A stretch of 64,000 nucleotides of DNA from an uncultured Mycoplasmatota bacterium (GCA_945949305.1 CAMFED010000002.1:14605-78604); one strand, 5' to 3'. Positions 1 through 64,000 are shown, numbered from the stretch's first letter. Notes: generated from the letters alone by a model not told the origin. Translations and numbers: made by a program.

Positions 1-102
1 TACTTGCTAACAATAGATACATTTTACTTTATGAGCCATATATTCACACCTTTCATAAAATTCTTCTTTTATATATTATAACATAAAATAATAAAAAAAT
101 CA

Positions 103-132
103 ACCCAAGGCGATTTTTATCTCGTCTTGGGT
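103..132 (-). terminator. rho-independent terminator hairpin (acccaag...cttgggt) downstream of the gene ending at 141
   Basis: Inverted repeat followed by a T-run on the minus strand. Confidence 0.4.
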
Positions 133-140
133 CTATCTTA

Positions 141-1130
141 TTAAGACTGAGGAACTAATTCTTCCTTAATCTCATTAATAATTAAACTAATGAACTCTGC
201 CTGATCCATTGTAGCTTCTGAAATTTTCTTACCCTTACCAAGATACTTTTCAATAACTCTTGTAATACGAGGAGCATAATACTCAGAATTCTTTGCCATT
301 AAATCACCAACTAATTGCTGGAATTCAGCCATTAAAGCATCATAATCATAATTCTTAGCAATAGAAGTTGCTTCACGCTGATCAGTAACGAATTTATTAT
401 CATACATCTGAGCTTCCTTATCAATAGCATCATTCAATGCCTTAACCAAATTTTCATAAGAAAATTCAATAGAAGGAACAATATACTTAAAACGGCAACC
501 AGTTTCAGCACTGTTATCAACAGAACGTAGGATTAAACGAACTTTAGCTTCACCATTTTCAGTATATTTCTCAGCATAAGCATAAATATCAGCCATATTC
601 TTAGCAATATCATTGTAAGAAGTAGGGCAAGTAGGAATAATTTGATTATACTCTACGCCAGTCTTAGTCTTAAAAGTCTTATCTTTACTATGAGAAATAA
701 AAACGACAGCATAACCAAGCTGAGCAATAGTTCTAAACATTTCCTCAAATTCTTTCTTTACAAGGGTCCAACCTTGTCCATAAGGAATACCAGAAAGAGT
801 ATCTACACTATTCTGTGCGCAAACATATTTTTCACAGAACTATCCAGCAATATCAACTGTATCAACTGCGATAGACTTAAATCTTTCTTTTACTTCTGGC
901 TTTTTTAATTCTCGAAGAATTTGCTTCATATCGCCCCAAGAAGTAATATCCTATGCTAATACACCAGGTAAAGCATTATATCCTCGTTCAAAAGCAAGAA
1001 TCAATGCTGAAGGCATATGAGAGGCAAAAGTAGTTTTACCAGATTTTTCAGCACCATAGATATAAGTAATATATCCAGAAAGATCACGACTAACCTTATG
1101 AGGGGTAAGACCTAACAGATTAATAGCCAT
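141..1130 (-). CDS. AAA_24 / Sak4-like RecA-family ATPase (recombination)
   Basis: Walker A motif GAEKSGKTTFA near the N-terminus. The ORF track gives the C-terminal 199 aa. It extends to the ATG at 1130 through two in-frame TAG codons, with an RBS ggag upstream. Confidence 0.55.
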
Positions 1131-1287
1131 TATTTAATTTTCTCCTTTTTTCTCCAATTCAAATAATTTACAATATTCATCTAGTAATTTATCTATTTCT
1201 TCTTTATTTAACAAAACATCATCATCATATAATATATTTAGTTTAGCATGAAGGCCTCTCTAGAGGCCATCATCTATTGGCTATTTA

Positions 1288-2220
1288 TTAAAAATTAAAT
1301 CCACCGGGAGCAGGAGCAGCGATGCTTGCATTTTTAGCCGCCTTGTATTCATCTTGTCTTTGCTTAATAGTAGCAAGATAAGTCTGACGCTGAGTCATAG
1401 CATCAGTTAATTCCTTTGCGGTCAAGAATTCTTCGTCATCCCAAGGATATGGATCCTTAGCGCCACCAGTAATTACAAAGTCCTTACGAGTAGTCTGTAC
1501 TTCACGAACATTATCTTCACCAAAAGCAGACTCTTCACGAATCTCACGCACAATAGTTTCAGATACCTGACGGCCCCAAACCTTAGTAAATACTGGTTCT
1601 GAGTTAGAAGCACCAAGTCCTTCATAATAAGCCATAGCTCCTGGATTGGTAGCAGAGAATTCAACTGGCAATAAAGCTTTACGGAAATCAAAAATTGCTC
1701 CCTTAACAATTACCTTCTCAGGAAGTTTCTTTTCTTCATCACCATCAATATGAGTTACACCAGTAATAACCATATCACACTTAAAAGTATTTCTTACTTT
1801 TTCATCTTCTGCTAAAGTATTAGTCAGATGAACAAATCCACCTTCATTGCGCTTAGTGCTAACAAGTTCTGACTTACCATTACGATCAGAATAGAACTCA
1901 TTCAAACCAATAGCAGAATCAACACGAAGTTTAGCAGCCTTATCAGCGCCATCCTTCATATAAGTACCTACTAAGCCATCAATAATATTCTGAAGAAGAG
2001 TATAAGTGGCATTTGCACTTCCCTTAGAAGTTGTAGGAGTTACATAAGTAAAATGAACTTGAACGATATTAGTTAAAGCATCATCCGTAGCGATGCTAAT
2101 AGTACCAGAAATAAAAGGAGTGCCAGGAGTCTTAGAATTAGGTCCAGAAACCTTTGATTCCAAATTATGTTCATACAAAATACCTTCAATATGAGTTACA
2201 TTTTCCATAGTTTTCTTCAT
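1288..2220 (-). CDS. hypothetical protein (possible phage ssDNA-binding/annealing partner of the Sak4-like ATPase)
   Basis: Intact 310-aa ORF immediately downstream of the AAA_24 gene. No recognisable motif, so the function is inferred from position only. Confidence 0.3.
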   Translation of the reverse strand: MKKTMENVTHIEGILYEHNLESKVSGPNSKTPGTPFISGTISIATDDALTNIVQVHFTYVTPTTSKGSANATYTLLQNIIDGLVGTYMKDGADKAAKLRVDSAIGLNEFYSDRNGKSELVSTKRNEGGFVHLTNTLAEDEKVRNTFKCDMVITGVTHIDGDEEKKLPEKVIVKGAIFDFRKALLPVEFSATNPGAMAYYEGLGASNSEPVFTKVWGRQVSETIVREIREESAFGEDNVREVQTTRKDFVITGGAKDPYPWDDEEFLTAKELTDAMTQRQTYLATIKQRQDEYKAAKNASIAAPAPGGFNF

Positions 2221-2242
2221 AAATTATTTTTCTCCTTAATAA

Positions 2243-2605
2243 TTACACAATTTCAATATTTTTACCTTTTTCTGTTAAAGTATAAACAATTGGATTTTGA
2301 CTCACTTTTTCTACAAATCCATCAGATACCAATTTACGCATTGAACCAGAAATTGCTCGACTTGAAATAAATAAACCTTCAGCAATATCTCTTGATTTAA
2401 CCATAACTTGATCCTGATTGTCTCTCATCCATTGAAGAATTTGTTTACCACTATCAGTGAATAATGGCTTTTCAACTTCTTCTTCACTTTTCAACGCATT
2501 CCAATAAAGTTCAGCGTCTTCATTCATTTCTGTTGGAATACCATTATTAGCAGCATTATTAATTAAATCTTCAACGAATTTTACAAATTCCTATTTTTTA
2601 CTCAT
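2243..2605 (-). CDS. winged-helix (MarR-like) transcriptional regulator
   Basis: 94-aa ORF with an HTH-like segment (SRDIAEGLFISSRAISGSMRKLVSDGFV). Extended N-terminally to the ATG at 2605 through one in-frame TAG. Confidence 0.45.
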
Positions 2606-2639
2606 TAATTTTTACTCACTTTCTTTACCTTGTATAAAT

Positions 2640-2668
2640 ATTATAACATATTTATTAAGAAAAATCAA
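2640..2668 (-). promoter_or_regulatory. sigma-70-type promoter, TTGATT-N17-TATAAT (minus strand)
   Basis: The revcomp of aatcaa (2663-2668) gives TTGATT and the revcomp of attata (2640-2645) gives TATAAT, 17 nt apart. It sits upstream of the regulator gene. Confidence 0.5.
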
Positions 2669-61953: not shown

Positions 61954-62010
61954 ATTATGGGGATAAATACCTTTAAAAATAGATATAAAGGTATTTATCC
62001 CCATAATTTC
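61954..62010 (-). terminator. long hairpin (atggggataaatacc...ggtatttatccccat), putative terminator
   Basis: Inverted repeat of about 15 bp flanking an AT-rich loop. Confidence 0.4.
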
Positions 62011-62142
62011 ATATCTTCCTCAATCATCTATTTTCAAAAGAGCAAAGTATATATAAAAAATAAGCTATCATTTTCAAACTTATTATTCTCTAAAATATAT
62101 TAAAATTTTAAATAATATAATTGCATATTTTAGTCCAAAAAA

Positions 62143-62171
62143 AATAAGTCCCTCAATTAAGAGGGACTTAT
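62143..62171 (-). terminator. rho-independent terminator (ataagtccctc...gagggacttat) followed by T8 on the minus strand
   Basis: Perfect hairpin plus an A8 run on the plus strand (a T-run on the minus strand). Confidence 0.55.
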
Positions 62172-62175
62172 AATT

Positions 62176-63526
62176 AAATATTTACTGTAGAAGAACCGCA
62201 ATCAAAAATTACATAGTTAGCAGAAGTATTTACATTAATTTTATCTAATGTAGGATAATCTACTATTGTACTAGTTTTAGCATCAATTTTACCATCAACA
62301 ATGCTAATTTTTTGGATAAACTTTCCAGCTCCCGCATCTAAACTACTGTCTAATGCTTTTATGCGGTCATCAATATCTTTTGGTACTGCTACACCATTAA
62401 TCTCAGAAGCAGTAGTTGGAACTGTAATATTAATAGTTTTATTTTCTGCTTGATTAGCTGAGAATGATCCAACAGAAACTCCATTCTTCTAAATAGTTAA
62501 AGTACCATTATTGACTGTTGGAATAACAGTCGTATTAGGTAAAGCTCCAACGTCTTGGGCACCAAGGACAATATTGCCACTAAGGGGAAACCCATTAATA
62601 GTAGTAGTTTTTAAAGCGTAGGAACTTTCATCACCTAATTTTTCCCATTTGGCTCCATCCCACACAAATTCAAAGTGGCCAGTCTCACTTTGACAAAGGA
62701 TAACATCACCAGCTTGGGCTTTACTAAAATTATATCCAGTAATTTTTGGGTCAGTTGTACTATGGTCATCAATAGAAACAGTAGCAGACCCAATAAAATG
62801 CATCGCCGAATTAAGACCAAGATCTGCAGCGGTAACATTAAAAGTTTTTGCAGAAGAACCATCAAATGTGGCTTTAGTAGTACCACCAATTTGAAGGGTT
62901 AAAGCATTAGCAACTTTATTAGCGCTTGTAGCATTGGTAGCATTATCAGCATGAGTTGCATTAGCAACTTTACTAGCAGTAATTGTAATTGTCTTTCCAG
63001 TTGAATCAGGAGTAATAGTAATTCCATCACCAGCTACTAACTTTACAGCATCATCTGTTCCAAAGGAAGTAGATCCAACGGTAATAGTTTGGTTATTGTT
63101 ATTATCTGGAATAGTAATAGTAGATACTGAAATCCAATTTTCACTATTCTTTTCTTTACTTTGTAAAGTAAATTTATGTCTATCAGTACTATCTTGAACT
63201 AATTTATAAGTAGTATTAGTATCTACAGTCATAGTGGGAGTATTTTTAATCTCACTATAATCATAAGAAGGCTTTGCAGCTGCTTTAGCCCAATCATATA
63301 CATCAGCAGCAAGACCAGAACCCCAAGGTAAGTTTTCCCAAGTAGTTGTACCATCACCAACTTTGAACAATACAGTAGGAGCAGTAGTTGTAGTACCATT
63401 AGTTACAGCAGGTACATAACATAAACCAACTTCACCTTGTAATAAAACTTTTGCTTTATTAGTAGTCCAATTGGCAAGAGTATCATACTTTAATTTAATA
63501 CGAGTATTAAAAGTTGTATTTGCCAT
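62176..63526 (-). CDS. tail fibre protein (about 450 aa) with the conserved N-terminal motif
   Basis: N-terminus MANTTFNTRIKLKYDTLANWTTNKAKVLLQGEVG. ORF 62489-63526 continues past the TAG at 62486 to a TAA at about 62176. Confidence 0.5.
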
Positions 63527-63550
63527 TATCTTTTATCCTCCATATGTAAT

Positions 63551-63575
63551 AAGAGGAGGGATTAACCCTCCTCTT
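63551..63575 (-). terminator. rho-independent terminator (aagaggaggg...ccctcctctt)
   Basis: Hairpin with a T-run. Confidence 0.45.
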
Positions 63576-63589
63576 TTATTTTATATTAA

Positions 63590-64000
63590 TTAGGCATTAC
63601 CGCCATTAAGAATAAGTTCATCACCAGCGGTTTGAACTAATTTATTAACATTTATATTATTAACAGTAGCTACACCAGTATCAGAAACGCTAATAGCATT
63701 TTCAGCATCAGAACTAATAATTAAACCAGCGCGAACTGCGGTAGCGAGAGGAATATTAACTGTCTTTTCACTAATTGCAATTTCAGTGCCATTAACCTGA
63801 ATCTTTTCAATTACATTAGGTTGTGCAGCATCCCACTGGGCGATTTTCTCAGAAGTAATACCTGCATAATCTGCCTCTTGAAGAGCTTTAATAGCATCCG
63901 CATTATCTTTTATCTTTTTACCAACAGTTCCAGTCTCAGTAAGAGAGGTATTAATCGCGGTAATCGCGTTAGCATTAGTACCAGCCTGAGTTTGAGCACT
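63590..64000 (-). CDS. tail fibre-like protein (partial; continues beyond the window)
   Basis: Open frame running to the window edge with a TAA stop at 63590-63592. The Ala/Thr/Asn-rich sequence is typical of fibre shafts. Confidence 0.4.
   Translation of the reverse strand, partial: SAQTQAGTNANAITAINTSLTETGTVGKKIKDNADAIKALQEADYAGITSEKIAQWDAAQPNVIEKIQVNGTEIAISEKTVNIPLATAVRAGLIISSDAENAISVSDTGVATVNNINVNKLVQTAGDELILNGGNA

What the first reader, a model, noticed from the sequence alone, without database searches (positions are those of the whole stretch)
1..64000. Strongly asymmetric TAG usage: sparse in early/metabolic genes, dense in the late region
Across 1-36 kb most genes are intact in the standard-code ORF track, with 0-2 TAG per gene. 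This covers the topoisomerases, NAMPT-like gene, NadE, MVP-like gene, flotillin and RNA ligase. From 37.8 kb onward (homing endonuclease, YcaO/radical-SAM block, tail fibres) genes carry 5-15 TAGs each, and the ORF track shows almost no ORF. This fits the proposal that recoding gates late-gene expression until a suppressor tRNA is available.
Basis: partly seen in the sequence, partly recalled or inferred. Interest (0 to 1): 0.6.

Follow-up and report, generated by a model that had tools for sequence, protein, structure and literature searches.

The report
Uneven amber-codon use in gut phage
This piece of a roughly 190 kb gut phage reads the stop codon TAG as glutamine in about half of its genes but keeps one 22 kb block of counter-defence and metabolic genes almost free of it, a pattern already described for such recoded phages.

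Summary
The asymmetry is real. All genes lie on the minus strand. Reading TAG as sense raises long-ORF coverage at 40-64 kb from 0.15-0.49 to 0.87-0.99. TAG density is 0.20/kb at 15.6-37.2 kb, 2.3/kb at 1-15.5 kb, 5.1/kb in the radical-SAM/YcaO island and 3.6/kb in the tail fibres (Fisher p about 5e-13). It survives normalising to Gln codons, off-frame TAG and base composition.

Six genes below 40 kb carry 3-9 TAGs, and late genes range 0-14 (median 3).

TAG most likely means Gln. TAG avoidance in the sparse block is conserved in 38 relatives (MVP-like gene: 1 TAG in 1070 Gln codons), so recent gene transfer does not explain it.

Twenty near-identical sigma-70-type promoters lie at or below 40.08 kb, except one. 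The amber suppressor tRNA is not in the window. In a 94-99% identical contig it sits 6.6 kb beyond the right edge, behind the same promoter type.

Just outside the left edge, replication genes behind such promoters are TAG-rich (RecJ-like, 14 TAGs). The split is therefore better read as suppressor-independent genes versus the rest than as early versus late. This is a known phenomenon in a new phage.

The parts
15649..37215 (-). TAG-sparse block of 28 genes: flotillin/SPFH, metallophosphoesterases, NADAR, NadE, Macro, NAMPT, PRPP-synthetase-like, nicotinamidase-like, RNA ligase, RlaP, cREC_REC, MVP-like, DUF2828/DUF7788 vWA, SLH protein, PD-(D/E)XK endonuclease
   Evidence: 4 TAG in 6,580 codons, 0.20/kb. 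Domains. Orthologs in 38 relatives stay TAG-free. Many genes prefer CAG, AAG, CTT and T-ending codons.
141..15470 (-). Replication and lysis block with intermediate TAG use: AAA_24, YorF, GIY-YIG, DNA ligase, GyrA-like, RNase H, GyrB-like, holin-like membrane protein (identified by eye from two hydrophobic stretches), endolysin, PIN-PhoH
   Evidence: 33 TAG in 4,849 codons, 2.27/kb. GyrA-like 0 TAG, GyrB-like 1 (codon 3), ligase 1. Domains.
75..40074 (-). 19 near-identical sigma-70-type promoters (TTGATTTTT..N..TGnTATAATAT). Their 5' ends are at 40074, 39180, 38976, 38767, 35477, 35185, 30702, 27574, 25961, 24714, 22970, 19509, 18497, 15530, 11564, 6508, 4991, 2668 and 103. Many follow a terminator hairpin directly.
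   Evidence: Regex and PWM scans found 20 minus-strand sites at score 20 or more and none on the plus strand. All but one lie at or below 40,079. Terminators.
45670..45698 (-). The only promoter of this type in the TAG-dense part (TTGATT-17-TATACT). It lies upstream of the Ser/Gly/Asn-rich repeat protein gene.
   Evidence: PWM score 23.4. A terminator hairpin lies at 45731-45707.
36642..39999 (-). tRNA array at the boundary: Thr(UGU), Ser remnants, Leu(UAA), Gly(UCC) interrupted, Lys(UUU), Ala(UGC) interrupted, Cys(GCA). No CUA anticodon.
   Evidence: The intact Gly and Ala genes are present in the 99% relative L002.
37861..38604 (-). GIY-YIG homing endonuclease inside tRNA-Gly. It is the most TAG-dense gene: 9 TAG, 12/kb.
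   Evidence: It lies in a precise 852-nt insertion between anticodon nucleotides 35 and 36. The early-type promoter at 38767 lies upstream.
3598..4566 (-). GIY-YIG endonuclease with 7 TAG. A terminator (4607-4579) lies directly upstream.
12090..13394 (-). Endolysin (CHAP + Amidase_2) with 3 TAG. A terminator (13453-13427) lies directly upstream and no early-type promoter lies between them.
13463..14869 (-). PIN-PhoH protein with 4-5 TAG, in the unit of the promoter at 15530.
   Evidence: Orthologs carry 23 TAG among 81 Gln-type codons.
33254..33493 (-). Small ORF (79 aa, 2 TAG) between the vWA and MVP-like genes. It is the one conserved TAG-using gene inside the sparse block.
   Evidence: 5 orthologs carry 11 TAG among 28 Gln-type codons.
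40086..53081 (-). Very AT-rich island (GC 0.22-0.25): YcaO, four radical-SAM/SPASM-like genes, a radical-SAM-GT2 fusion and two repeat-rich small proteins. It has the highest TAG density.
   Evidence: 65 TAG in 4,290 codons, 5.05/kb. Domains. It is not syntenic in relatives.
53166..64000 (-). Tail-fibre module with TAG in 11 of 13 genes.
   Evidence: 37 TAG in 3,464 codons, 3.56/kb. PHROG tail-fibre hits. Start codons corrected.

Best explanation
The window is part of a roughly 190-200 kb SPbeta-like phage of gut Firmicutes. The phage uses TAG as a glutamine codon in just over half of its genes.

Decoding TAG needs a phage suppressor tRNA(CUA). In a 94-99% identical contig this tRNA lies 6.6 kb beyond the right edge of the window. 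It sits at the head of the tail-fibre module, behind a host-type promoter.

Genes that must be translated by the unmodified host machinery are written in 'host dialect'. They have no TAG, and they avoid the A-ending codons (AAA, TTA, ACA, GGA, ATA, AGA) that the phage's own tRNAs read. In the window these genes are one block of about 22 kb. The block is made of self-contained promoter-terminator units that encode NAD+ salvage, ADP-ribose removal, RNA repair, MVP/vWA and membrane proteins. The topoisomerase subunits and RNase H are also TAG-free, and the DNA ligase carries one TAG.

Everything else may use TAG, and can be completed only once the suppressor has accumulated. This group includes the tail fibres, the radical-SAM island, the endolysin, the homing endonucleases and several replication genes.

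Shown: the codon pattern, its conservation, the promoter layout and the suppressor in the near-identical contig. Inferred: that this creates a translational delay or fail-safe, and its timing.
For: - Recoding: coverage gain with TAG read-through only.
- TAG = Gln: in the radical-SAM protein at 42145-43506, 3 of the 6 TAG sites that fall on strongly conserved columns (one residue in at least 80% of homologs) are columns with 93-98% Q, against a background of 3.7% Q. In all, 5 of its 14 TAG sites lie on columns where Q is the commonest residue.
- At the DNA level, CAA/CAG are 12 of 29 non-TAG partners of TAG sites. TAT, TAC and TGG do not occur. Two sites switch TAG<->CAG between the window and relatives.
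- Asymmetry with controls.
- Selection: across 38 relatives at 56-81% identity, MVP has 1 TAG in 1070 Gln codons, RNA ligase 1 in 295, flotillin 0 in 245 and NAMPT 0 in 77. PhoH has 23 in 81.
- TAG is never a terminator: the 34 TAG-free genes end in TAA (26) or TGA (8).
- Promoters: 20 sites, 19 of them at or below 40.08 kb. Relatives show the same gap across their tail-fibre modules.
- Codon dialect matches the phage tRNA set.
- Suppressor tRNA(CUA) at L201 2877-2951. L201 position 9527 equals window position 64000 at 94-99% identity. A promoter lies at L201 2586.
- Suppressors sit at the same place in the array in relatives.
Against: - There are no expression or proteomic data, so timing is inferred from promoter type and gene function only.
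- The suppressor is not in the window and was seen only in a close relative.
- The suppressor lies behind an early-type promoter, so any delay may be short.
- Some TAG-poor genes lie in the dense region: 45744-47479 (1 TAG each), 62174-63526 (1) and 53166-53486 (0).
- Heterogeneity within the late part is itself significant (p = 0.007).
- My gene calls are mechanical. The small ORFs with 4 TAGs (4981-5181, 9366-9617) may not be genes.
- The host is unknown, so 'host dialect' was not checked against a host genome.
Confidence: 0.6

Rival explanations
1. Strict late-gene gate. TAG marks late (structural and lysis) genes. TAG-free marks early genes. The suppressor is produced late and switches the late programme on.
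For: - Tail fibres, the endolysin and both GIY-YIG endonucleases are TAG-rich.
- No early-type promoter lies at 40.1-64 kb except one weak site.
- The pattern matches published maps of recoded phages.
Against: - The suppressor in the near-identical contig lies 290 nt downstream of the strongest early-type promoter.
- RecJ-like (14 TAG), helicase (8) and DnaB (2) lie behind early-type promoters just outside the window.
- PIN-PhoH (5 TAG) lies in an early-type unit.
- The holin-like gene next to the endolysin has no TAG.
Confidence: 0.2
2. Translation-efficiency selection only. TAG is a poorly decoded codon, so it is purged from highly expressed genes whatever their timing. The block pattern simply reflects where the highly expressed genes sit.
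For: - The codon-bias covariates explain TAG use better than position does (likelihood-ratio test p = 6e-9 against 9e-4).
- The TAG-free genes with the strongest bias (MVP-like, flotillin, NAMPT, vWA) also avoid every A-ending codon.
Against: - AT-rich genes with ordinary phage codon usage in the early part are still depleted once endonucleases, lysin and PhoH are set aside: 8 TAG in 83 Gln-type codons against 81 in 219 late, p = 1e-6.
- Tail-fibre genes are needed in quantity and yet use TAG freely.
- The avoided codons are exactly those read by phage-encoded tRNAs. This points to dependence on the phage tRNA supply rather than to general efficiency.
Confidence: 0.15
3. Recent horizontal acquisition. 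The TAG-free genes came lately from standard-code bacteria and have not yet drifted towards phage codon usage.
For: - GC is higher (0.37-0.44) and CAG is preferred in several genes of the block.
- Their functions are typical of bacterial metabolism.
Against: - The same genes are present in 38 relatives down to 56% protein identity. They keep both the TAG avoidance and the CAG preference: MVP has CAG 952, CAA 117, TAG 1.
- Core phage genes (AAA_24, YorF) share the same codon bias.
- The most foreign-looking segment, the non-syntenic AT-rich island, is the most TAG-rich.
Confidence: 0.03

Closest known systems
TAG-recoded (code 15) gut phages: crAss-like, Lak, and the Jade, Sapphire and Agate clades of Borges et al. 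(bioRxiv 10.1101/2021.08.26.457843). Code 15 was confirmed by metaproteomics in Peters et al. (PMC9523058).
   Same: - In-frame TAG read as Gln.
- Structural, lysis and homing-endonuclease genes recoded.
- A subset of genes remains compatible with the standard code.
- Use in replication genes is variable.
- A phage suppressor tRNA is present.
- The genome is AT-rich and of the same size class (for the paper; here).
   Different: - This lineage has SPbeta-type genes (YorF, YorH, YomU, YonG). I did not place it in any named clade.
- The TAG-free set here is mainly one block of counter-defence and metabolic units, each with its own promoter.
- No release factor or aminoacyl-tRNA synthetase gene was seen in the window.
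Phage genomes divided into blocks with different genetic codes (Mgcod, bioRxiv 10.1101/2022.06.29.495998)
   Same: Contiguous blocks with and without in-frame TAG.
   Different: In the TAG-free genes here TAG is not used as a terminator either: 0 of 34. The block is code-neutral rather than demonstrably standard-code.
phAss-1 / proposed Phassvirus (PMC10607447)
   Same: A human-gut phage above 130 kb with TAG in several dozen ORFs and with suppressor tRNA genes.
   Different: Relatedness was not tested directly. The two tblastn searches of GenBank phage records (GyrA-like and MVP-like proteins) found nothing above about 43% identity, and the MVP-like protein found only three huge-phage records at 40%.
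Phage tRNA sets that match late-gene codon usage (T4 and others; from general knowledge)
   Same: The phage tRNAs read the A-ending codons that are common in late genes and rare in the host-like gene class.
   Different: Here the set includes a stop-codon suppressor, so for TAG the dependence is absolute rather than a matter of rate.

Membership tests
Stop-codon-recoded (code 15) phage | In-frame TAG inside conserved genes; reading it through restores full-length ORFs | tested here: met
   Coverage at 40-64 kb rises from 0.15-0.49 to 0.87-0.99 with TAG read-through only. Full-length homologs exist for a 14-TAG radical-SAM protein.
Stop-codon-recoded (code 15) phage | TAG corresponds to glutamine | tested here: met
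   Of the 6 TAG sites on strongly conserved columns, 3 lie on columns with 93-98% Q. At the DNA level CAA/CAG are 12 of 29 non-TAG partners, with no Tyr or Trp codons. There is no protein-level proof.
Stop-codon-recoded (code 15) phage | Phage-encoded suppressor tRNA with anticodon CUA | tested here: inconclusive
   None in the window. One is present 6.6 kb beyond the window edge in a 94-99% identical contig, and at the same place in the array in relatives. The window's own genome could not be read there.
Stop-codon-recoded (code 15) phage | Recoded codon enriched in structural and lysis genes and absent from a subset of other genes | tested here: met
   Endolysin 3 TAG, tail fibres 3.6/kb, sparse block 0.20/kb.
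Stop-codon-recoded (code 15) phage | Host uses the standard code | not testable with these tools
   The host was not identified. Relatives are binned into MAGs (metagenome-assembled genomes) of Clostridium, Agathobacter, Acutalibacteraceae and Eubacterium, but no host junction was seen.
Stop-codon-recoded (code 15) phage | Code-change helpers (release factor 2, aminoacyl-tRNA synthetase); optional in the literature | tested here: not met
   No such domain in the window proteins of about 100 aa or more that were scanned. The rest of the genome was not examined.
Temporal gating of late genes by recoding | TAG-containing genes are translated later than TAG-free ones | not testable with these tools
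   Needs time-resolved expression data. Promoter layout is the only proxy, and it is mixed.
Dual-code block genome (Mgcod sense) | TAG acts as a terminator in the standard-code block | tested here: not met
   0 of 34 TAG-free genes end in TAG; 26 end in TAA and 8 in TGA.

The most novel reading that the evidence does not exclude
TAG is only the extreme case of a whole 'codon dialect'. The phage writes an immediate-early counter-defence arsenal in codons that the host can read unaided. This arsenal covers NAD+ regeneration, ADP-ribose removal, RNA repair and the MVP/vWA pair. The rest of the genome is written in codons that need the phage's own tRNA array, suppressor included. The tRNA array then acts as a global translational timer. 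TAG and A-ending-codon avoidance could be used to pick out immediate-early anti-defence genes in uncultured recoded phages.
Probability: 0.35. Interest if true: 0.55.

Novelty: new member of a known kind. Interest (0 to 1): 0.3.

Why it matters
The phenomenon itself is published, so this finding mainly adds a clean, well-controlled instance in an SPbeta-like lineage. That lineage is very common in human gut assemblies: one of its proteins occurs in about 1,000 assembly blocks.

Three points are useful beyond the instance.
- Sequence-only evidence separates selection from composition and from gene transfer. The evidence is the promoter layout, the conservation across 38 relatives and the matching phage tRNA set.
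- The line runs between suppressor-independent genes and the rest, rather than between early and late genes.
- Codon dialect may flag immediate-early counter-defence genes in phages that cannot be cultured.

For annotation, the window must be called with table 15. Otherwise the 40-64 kb part looks almost empty.

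Tried and rejected
- Megablast of 40-60 kb against GenBank phages: no match.
- Exact 39-mer from the window in IMG/VR: no match.
- Rfam on 36.4-40.2 kb: only the four intact tRNAs. No group I or group II intron and no suppressor.
- Brute-force search of the window for a CUA anticodon arm with a T-loop: none.
- Two suppressor-tRNA patterns taken from relatives and scanned in IMG/VR. Neither recovered the 201 kb contig of the 99% relative. The suppressor was found instead by fetching the flank of a 99% tail-fibre homolog.
- The idea that the 90-nt suppressor of some relatives is a Tyr-derived suppressor (TAG = Tyr) was rejected. 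It shares only 57 of 90 bases with the neighbouring tRNA-Tyr, and no TAT or TAC partners occur at TAG sites.
- The recent-transfer explanation was rejected on conservation.
- Host identification through genome contigs gave only phage contigs binned into MAGs.
- No late-promoter motif was derived, because there are too few intergenic regions in the late part.

Full report
**What is in the window**

GC is 0.22-0.39 with a steady negative GC skew. Every credible gene is on the minus strand, so transcription runs from 64000 towards 1.

Under the standard code, ORFs of at least 150 aa cover 52% of the window. Letting TAG be read through raises this to 81%. In the bins from 40 to 64 kb it rises from 0.15-0.49 to 0.87-0.99. 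Read-through of TGA or TAA has no such effect.

I built a table-15 gene set mechanically: the longest ORFs, with starts at ATG, GTG or TTG, and with ORFs that overlap tRNAs removed. It has 74 genes and is 92% coding.

- 1-15.5 kb: AAA_24, YorF, a GIY-YIG endonuclease, DNA ligase, GyrA-like and GyrB-like subunits, RNase H, a CHAP+Amidase_2 endolysin and a PIN-PhoH protein.
- 15.6-37.2 kb: flotillin, metallophosphoesterases, NADAR, NadE, Macro, NAMPT, a PRPP-synthetase-like protein, an isochorismatase-family protein, RNA ligase, RlaP, cREC_REC, an MVP-like protein, a DUF2828/DUF7788 vWA protein, an SLH protein and a PD-(D/E)XK endonuclease.
- 36.6-40 kb: tRNAs and a GIY-YIG endonuclease.
- 40.1-53.1 kb: YcaO, several radical-SAM/SPASM-like proteins and a GT2 fusion.
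- 53.2-64 kb: tail fibres.

**The observation**

TAG density is 2.27/kb at 1-15.5 kb and 0.20/kb at 15.6-37.2 kb (4 TAG in 6,580 codons). It is 5.05/kb in the radical-SAM island and 3.56/kb in the tail fibres.

I split the window at 40.08 kb. Below it there are 46 TAG in 11,886 codons. Above it there are 102 TAG in 7,754 codons. Fisher p is 5e-13 per codon and 2e-13 relative to CAA+CAG. Gene-label permutation gives p <= 7e-5.

Off-frame TAG is about equally common everywhere (9-19/kb). The in-frame/off-frame ratio is 0.02 in the sparse block and about 0.25 in the late blocks. Against position-specific base composition, TAG is 20-fold under-represented in the sparse block and 1.65-fold over-represented in the late blocks. 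Two TAG-free runs of 2,425 and 2,192 codons exceed the 99.9th percentile (1,446) of uniform placement.

The refutation condition given with the finding (uniform density) is therefore not met.

- Six genes at or below 40 kb carry 3-9 TAGs: two GIY-YIG endonucleases with 7 and 9, PIN-PhoH with 5, the endolysin with 3, and two small ORFs with 4 each.
- Late genes of at least 100 aa carry 0-14 TAGs, with a median of 3.

**What TAG means**

The 14-TAG radical-SAM protein (42145-43506) has more than 400 homologs.
- Six of its TAG sites fall on columns where at least 80% of homologs share one residue. Three of these columns are 93-98% Q, against a background of 3.7% Q.
- In all, five of the 14 TAG sites lie on columns where Q is the commonest residue.

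That test could be circular, because the database may have translated other recoded phages with table 15. I therefore repeated it at the DNA level against loci that I had fetched.
- Among unique well-aligned sites, CAA/CAG are 12 of 29 non-TAG partners of TAG. No other amino acid exceeds 3. TAT, TAC and TGG never occur.
- The AAA_24 gene shows two TAG<->CAG switches between the window and relatives. In the nearly identical contig L166 its ortholog has 0 TAG and 9 CAG, against 2 TAG and 7 CAG in the window.

Gln is therefore the best-supported reading, though it is not proven at the protein level.

TAG is also never used as a terminator. The 34 TAG-free genes end in TAA (26) or TGA (8). The sparse block is therefore code-neutral rather than demonstrably standard-code.

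**Is it selection?**

The MVP-like protein retrieved 40 loci from IMG/VR. They come from contigs of 113-201 kb, at 56-100% identity.

Setting aside the two nearly identical loci, orthologs of the sparse-block genes remain TAG-free.
- MVP: 1 TAG among 1,070 Gln-type codons (CAG 952, CAA 117).
- RNA ligase: 1 in 295.
- The RlaP-like gene: 0 in 261.
- Flotillin: 0 in 245.
- NAMPT: 0 in 77.

In contrast, PIN-PhoH orthologs have 23 in 81, and a small ORF between the vWA and MVP genes has 11 in 28.

At that divergence synonymous sites are saturated, so both TAG avoidance and CAG preference are being maintained. This removes the 'recently acquired, not yet ameliorated' explanation.

The most foreign-looking segment is the AT-rich island. 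It is absent from that position in relatives and is different even in the 99% relative. It is also the most TAG-rich segment.

**Independent markers of the expression class**

A strict pattern, TTGA[CT][AT]-N17-TATAAT, finds 18 intergenic sites on the minus strand and none on the plus strand.

A weight matrix built from these sites finds 20 sites at score 20 or more. Nineteen lie at or below 40,079 and one weaker site lies at 45,698. The sites are nearly identical to one another (TTGATTTTT...TGnTATAATAT), and many follow a terminator hairpin directly.

The more AT-rich late part would give more chance matches, yet it has almost none. Relatives show the same gap across their tail-fibre modules.

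Terminators without a following promoter lie directly upstream of the endolysin (13453-13427) and of the GIY-YIG gene at 3598-4566.

**Codon dialect**

Eighteen genes at or below 40 kb form a distinct class. They include MVP, flotillin, NAMPT, NadE, RNA ligase, the vWA protein and the SLH protein, and also the core phage genes AAA_24 and YorF.

In this class the shares within each amino acid's codon family are low for A-ending codons: AAA 0.35, TTA 0.12, ACA 0.08, GGA 0.12, ATA 0.01, AGA 0.22. TAG makes up 0.02 of Gln-type codons. In the late genes the same shares are 0.89, 0.74, 0.33, 0.38, 0.27, 0.49 and 0.37.

The avoided codons are exactly those read by the phage's tRNAs.
- In the window these are Lys-UUU, Leu-UAA, Thr-UGU, Gly-UCC and Ala-UGC.
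- Relatives also have Ile-UAU, Arg-UCU, Ser-UGA, Pro-UGG and Val-UAC.

In a logistic model of TAG against CAA+CAG, the codon-bias covariates explain more than position does. The likelihood-ratio test gives p = 6e-9 for the covariates and p = 9e-4 for position, and both remain significant.

AT-rich early genes with ordinary phage codon usage are still depleted. Leaving out the endonucleases, the lysin and PhoH, they have 8 TAG in 83 Gln-type codons, against 81 in 219 for late genes (p = 1e-6).

**The suppressor**

The window has no tRNA with a CUA anticodon.

Relatives carry one in the same tRNA array. In the 81% relatives the array is split by the tail-fibre module. The order is [Ile, Pro, Val, suppressor, Tyr], then the tail fibres, then [Thr, Ser, Ser, Leu, Gly, Lys, Cys], then the MVP block.

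A 99% homolog of the tail-fibre protein at 62174-63526 lies on ENA contig ERZ28573747 scaffold_41 (192,228 bp). The same contig carries an exact copy of the window's YorF protein.

The locus fetched from that contig (L201) aligns to window 64000-49489 at 94-99% identity. Locus position 9527 corresponds to window position 64000. Upstream of that point it carries Arg, Ile, Pro, Gln(UUG), Tyr, an early-type promoter (score 45.3 at 2586), Val, and tRNA(CUA) at 2877-2951.

By synteny the suppressor lies about 6.6 kb beyond the right edge of the window. It heads the TAG-rich module and is driven by a host-type promoter.

Its acceptor end has an unpaired U1/C72 and a G73 discriminator. From general knowledge of GlnRS identity elements this resembles tRNA-Gln. 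I did not test it.

**Why the simple late gate does not fit well**

In the nearly identical contig, just beyond the left edge of the window, replication genes are TAG-rich. The RecJ-like gene has 14 TAGs, a helicase 8, YorH 4 and DnaB 2. They lie behind early-type promoters.

Taken with the early-type promoter in front of the suppressor, this places the dividing line elsewhere. On one side are genes that must be translated before the phage tRNAs accumulate. On the other side is everything else. The line is not between early and late transcription.

Borges et al. already report three of these points: replication genes vary in their use of the alternative code, structural and lysis genes use it, and an intron homing endonuclease inside an early gene is preferentially recoded. 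Block-wise code use is also the premise of Mgcod.

**Verdict**

The phenomenon is known, and this is a new member in an SPbeta-like gut lineage. That lineage is absent from GenBank phage records at close range.

**Limits**

- My gene calls are mechanical.
- The host is unknown.
- The suppressor was seen in a close relative, not in the window's own sequence.
- Nothing here measures timing.

Noticed in passing
window 38725-37797 (minus strand): tRNA-Gly(UCC) is split by a precise 852-nt insertion between anticodon nucleotides 35 and 36. The insertion is 85 nt, then the GIY-YIG ORF with 9 TAGs, then 23 nt. There is no target duplication. It starts with G and ends with A, after an exon ending in C, so its ends are not those of a canonical group I or II intron. 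Rfam finds no intron. The gene is intact in the 99% relative L002. ARAGORN's 'tRNA-Leu(caa) 37797-37883' is a mis-call of the 3' half.
   Followed up: partly
window 37279-36725 (minus strand): tRNA-Ala(UGC) is split after anticodon nucleotide 36 by an insertion of about 479 nt. It holds a TAG-free PD-(D/E)XK endonuclease of the PDDEXK_5 family with only 28 and 13 nt of flank, too little for a classical ribozyme core. The gene is intact in L001 and L002, so the insertion is polymorphic among genomes at least 99% identical.
   Followed up: partly
window 39096-39015 (minus strand): An orphan tRNA 3' half is followed by a tRNA 5' half. Relatives have tandem tRNA-Ser(UGA) and tRNA-Ser(GGA) at this place, so these are probably deletion remnants. 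Each still has an early-type promoter upstream (39180 and 38976).
   Followed up: partly
window 40086-53081: A very AT-rich island (GC 0.22-0.25) that is not syntenic in relatives. It looks like two paralogous cassettes. Each starts with a small protein that has a roughly 110-aa N-terminal part and Ser/Gly/Asn/Tyr-rich repeats (44878-45645 and 50582-51079). Each is followed by a radical-SAM gene and a radical-SAM/SPASM-like gene. The island also has YcaO and a radical-SAM-GT2 fusion. All family matches fall far below the curated cut-offs. It may be a peptide-modification system sitting next to the tail fibres.
   Followed up: partly
window 19707-24375: A cluster for NAD+ supply and ADP-ribose removal: NADAR, NadE, Macro, NAMPT, a PRPP-synthetase-like protein and an isochorismatase-family (nicotinamidase-like) protein. 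All are TAG-free. It looks like a counter-measure to NAD-depleting or ADP-ribosylating host defences.
   Followed up: no
window 26099-29978: An RNA-repair-like cluster: RNA ligase, metallophosphoesterase, RlaP nucleotidyltransferase and a cREC_REC domain protein. All are TAG-free.
   Followed up: no
window 30753-35074: An MVP-like (vault shoulder) protein of 828 aa lies next to a DUF2828/DUF7788 vWA protein. The pair is conserved across about 40 IMG/VR contigs of 113-201 kb. Among GenBank phage records it is found only in three huge-phage genomes, at 40% identity. A small conserved TAG-containing ORF lies between the two genes.
   Followed up: partly
loci L170-L176, L201, L015, L022, L025: Suppressor tRNAs(CUA) of relatives are heterogeneous. 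Some are 73-75 nt class I forms, and others are 90 nt with a long variable arm. In L022 and L025 a terminator-like hairpin lies between the promoter and the suppressor. L015 has two different suppressors.
   Followed up: partly
locus L166 12181-20271 (beyond the left edge of the window): Replication genes of the nearly identical contig are TAG-rich: RecJ-like 14 TAGs, helicase 8, YorH 4. Early-type promoters lie at L166 12112, 17593 and 20532.
   Followed up: partly
window 42145-42153, 40086-40120, 51042-51080, 9366-9375: Several TAG-rich genes have a TAG within the last 1-12 codons before the TAA or TGA stop (relative position 0.98-0.99). Without the suppressor these proteins would end almost at full length.
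   Followed up: no
window 53501-56338 and 51042-53081: Two long late genes appear to start at TTG, with no in-frame ATG near the start. They are the tail-fibre protein with ALK/LTK glycine-rich and Laminin_G_3 domains, and the radical-SAM-GT2 fusion. ATG-only gene calling truncates both.
   Followed up: partly
window 35519-36577: A secreted protein with two S-layer-homology domains lies in the TAG-free block. This hints at a Gram-positive host with an S-layer. Relatives are binned with Clostridium, Agathobacter, Acutalibacteraceae and Eubacterium MAGs.
   Followed up: partly
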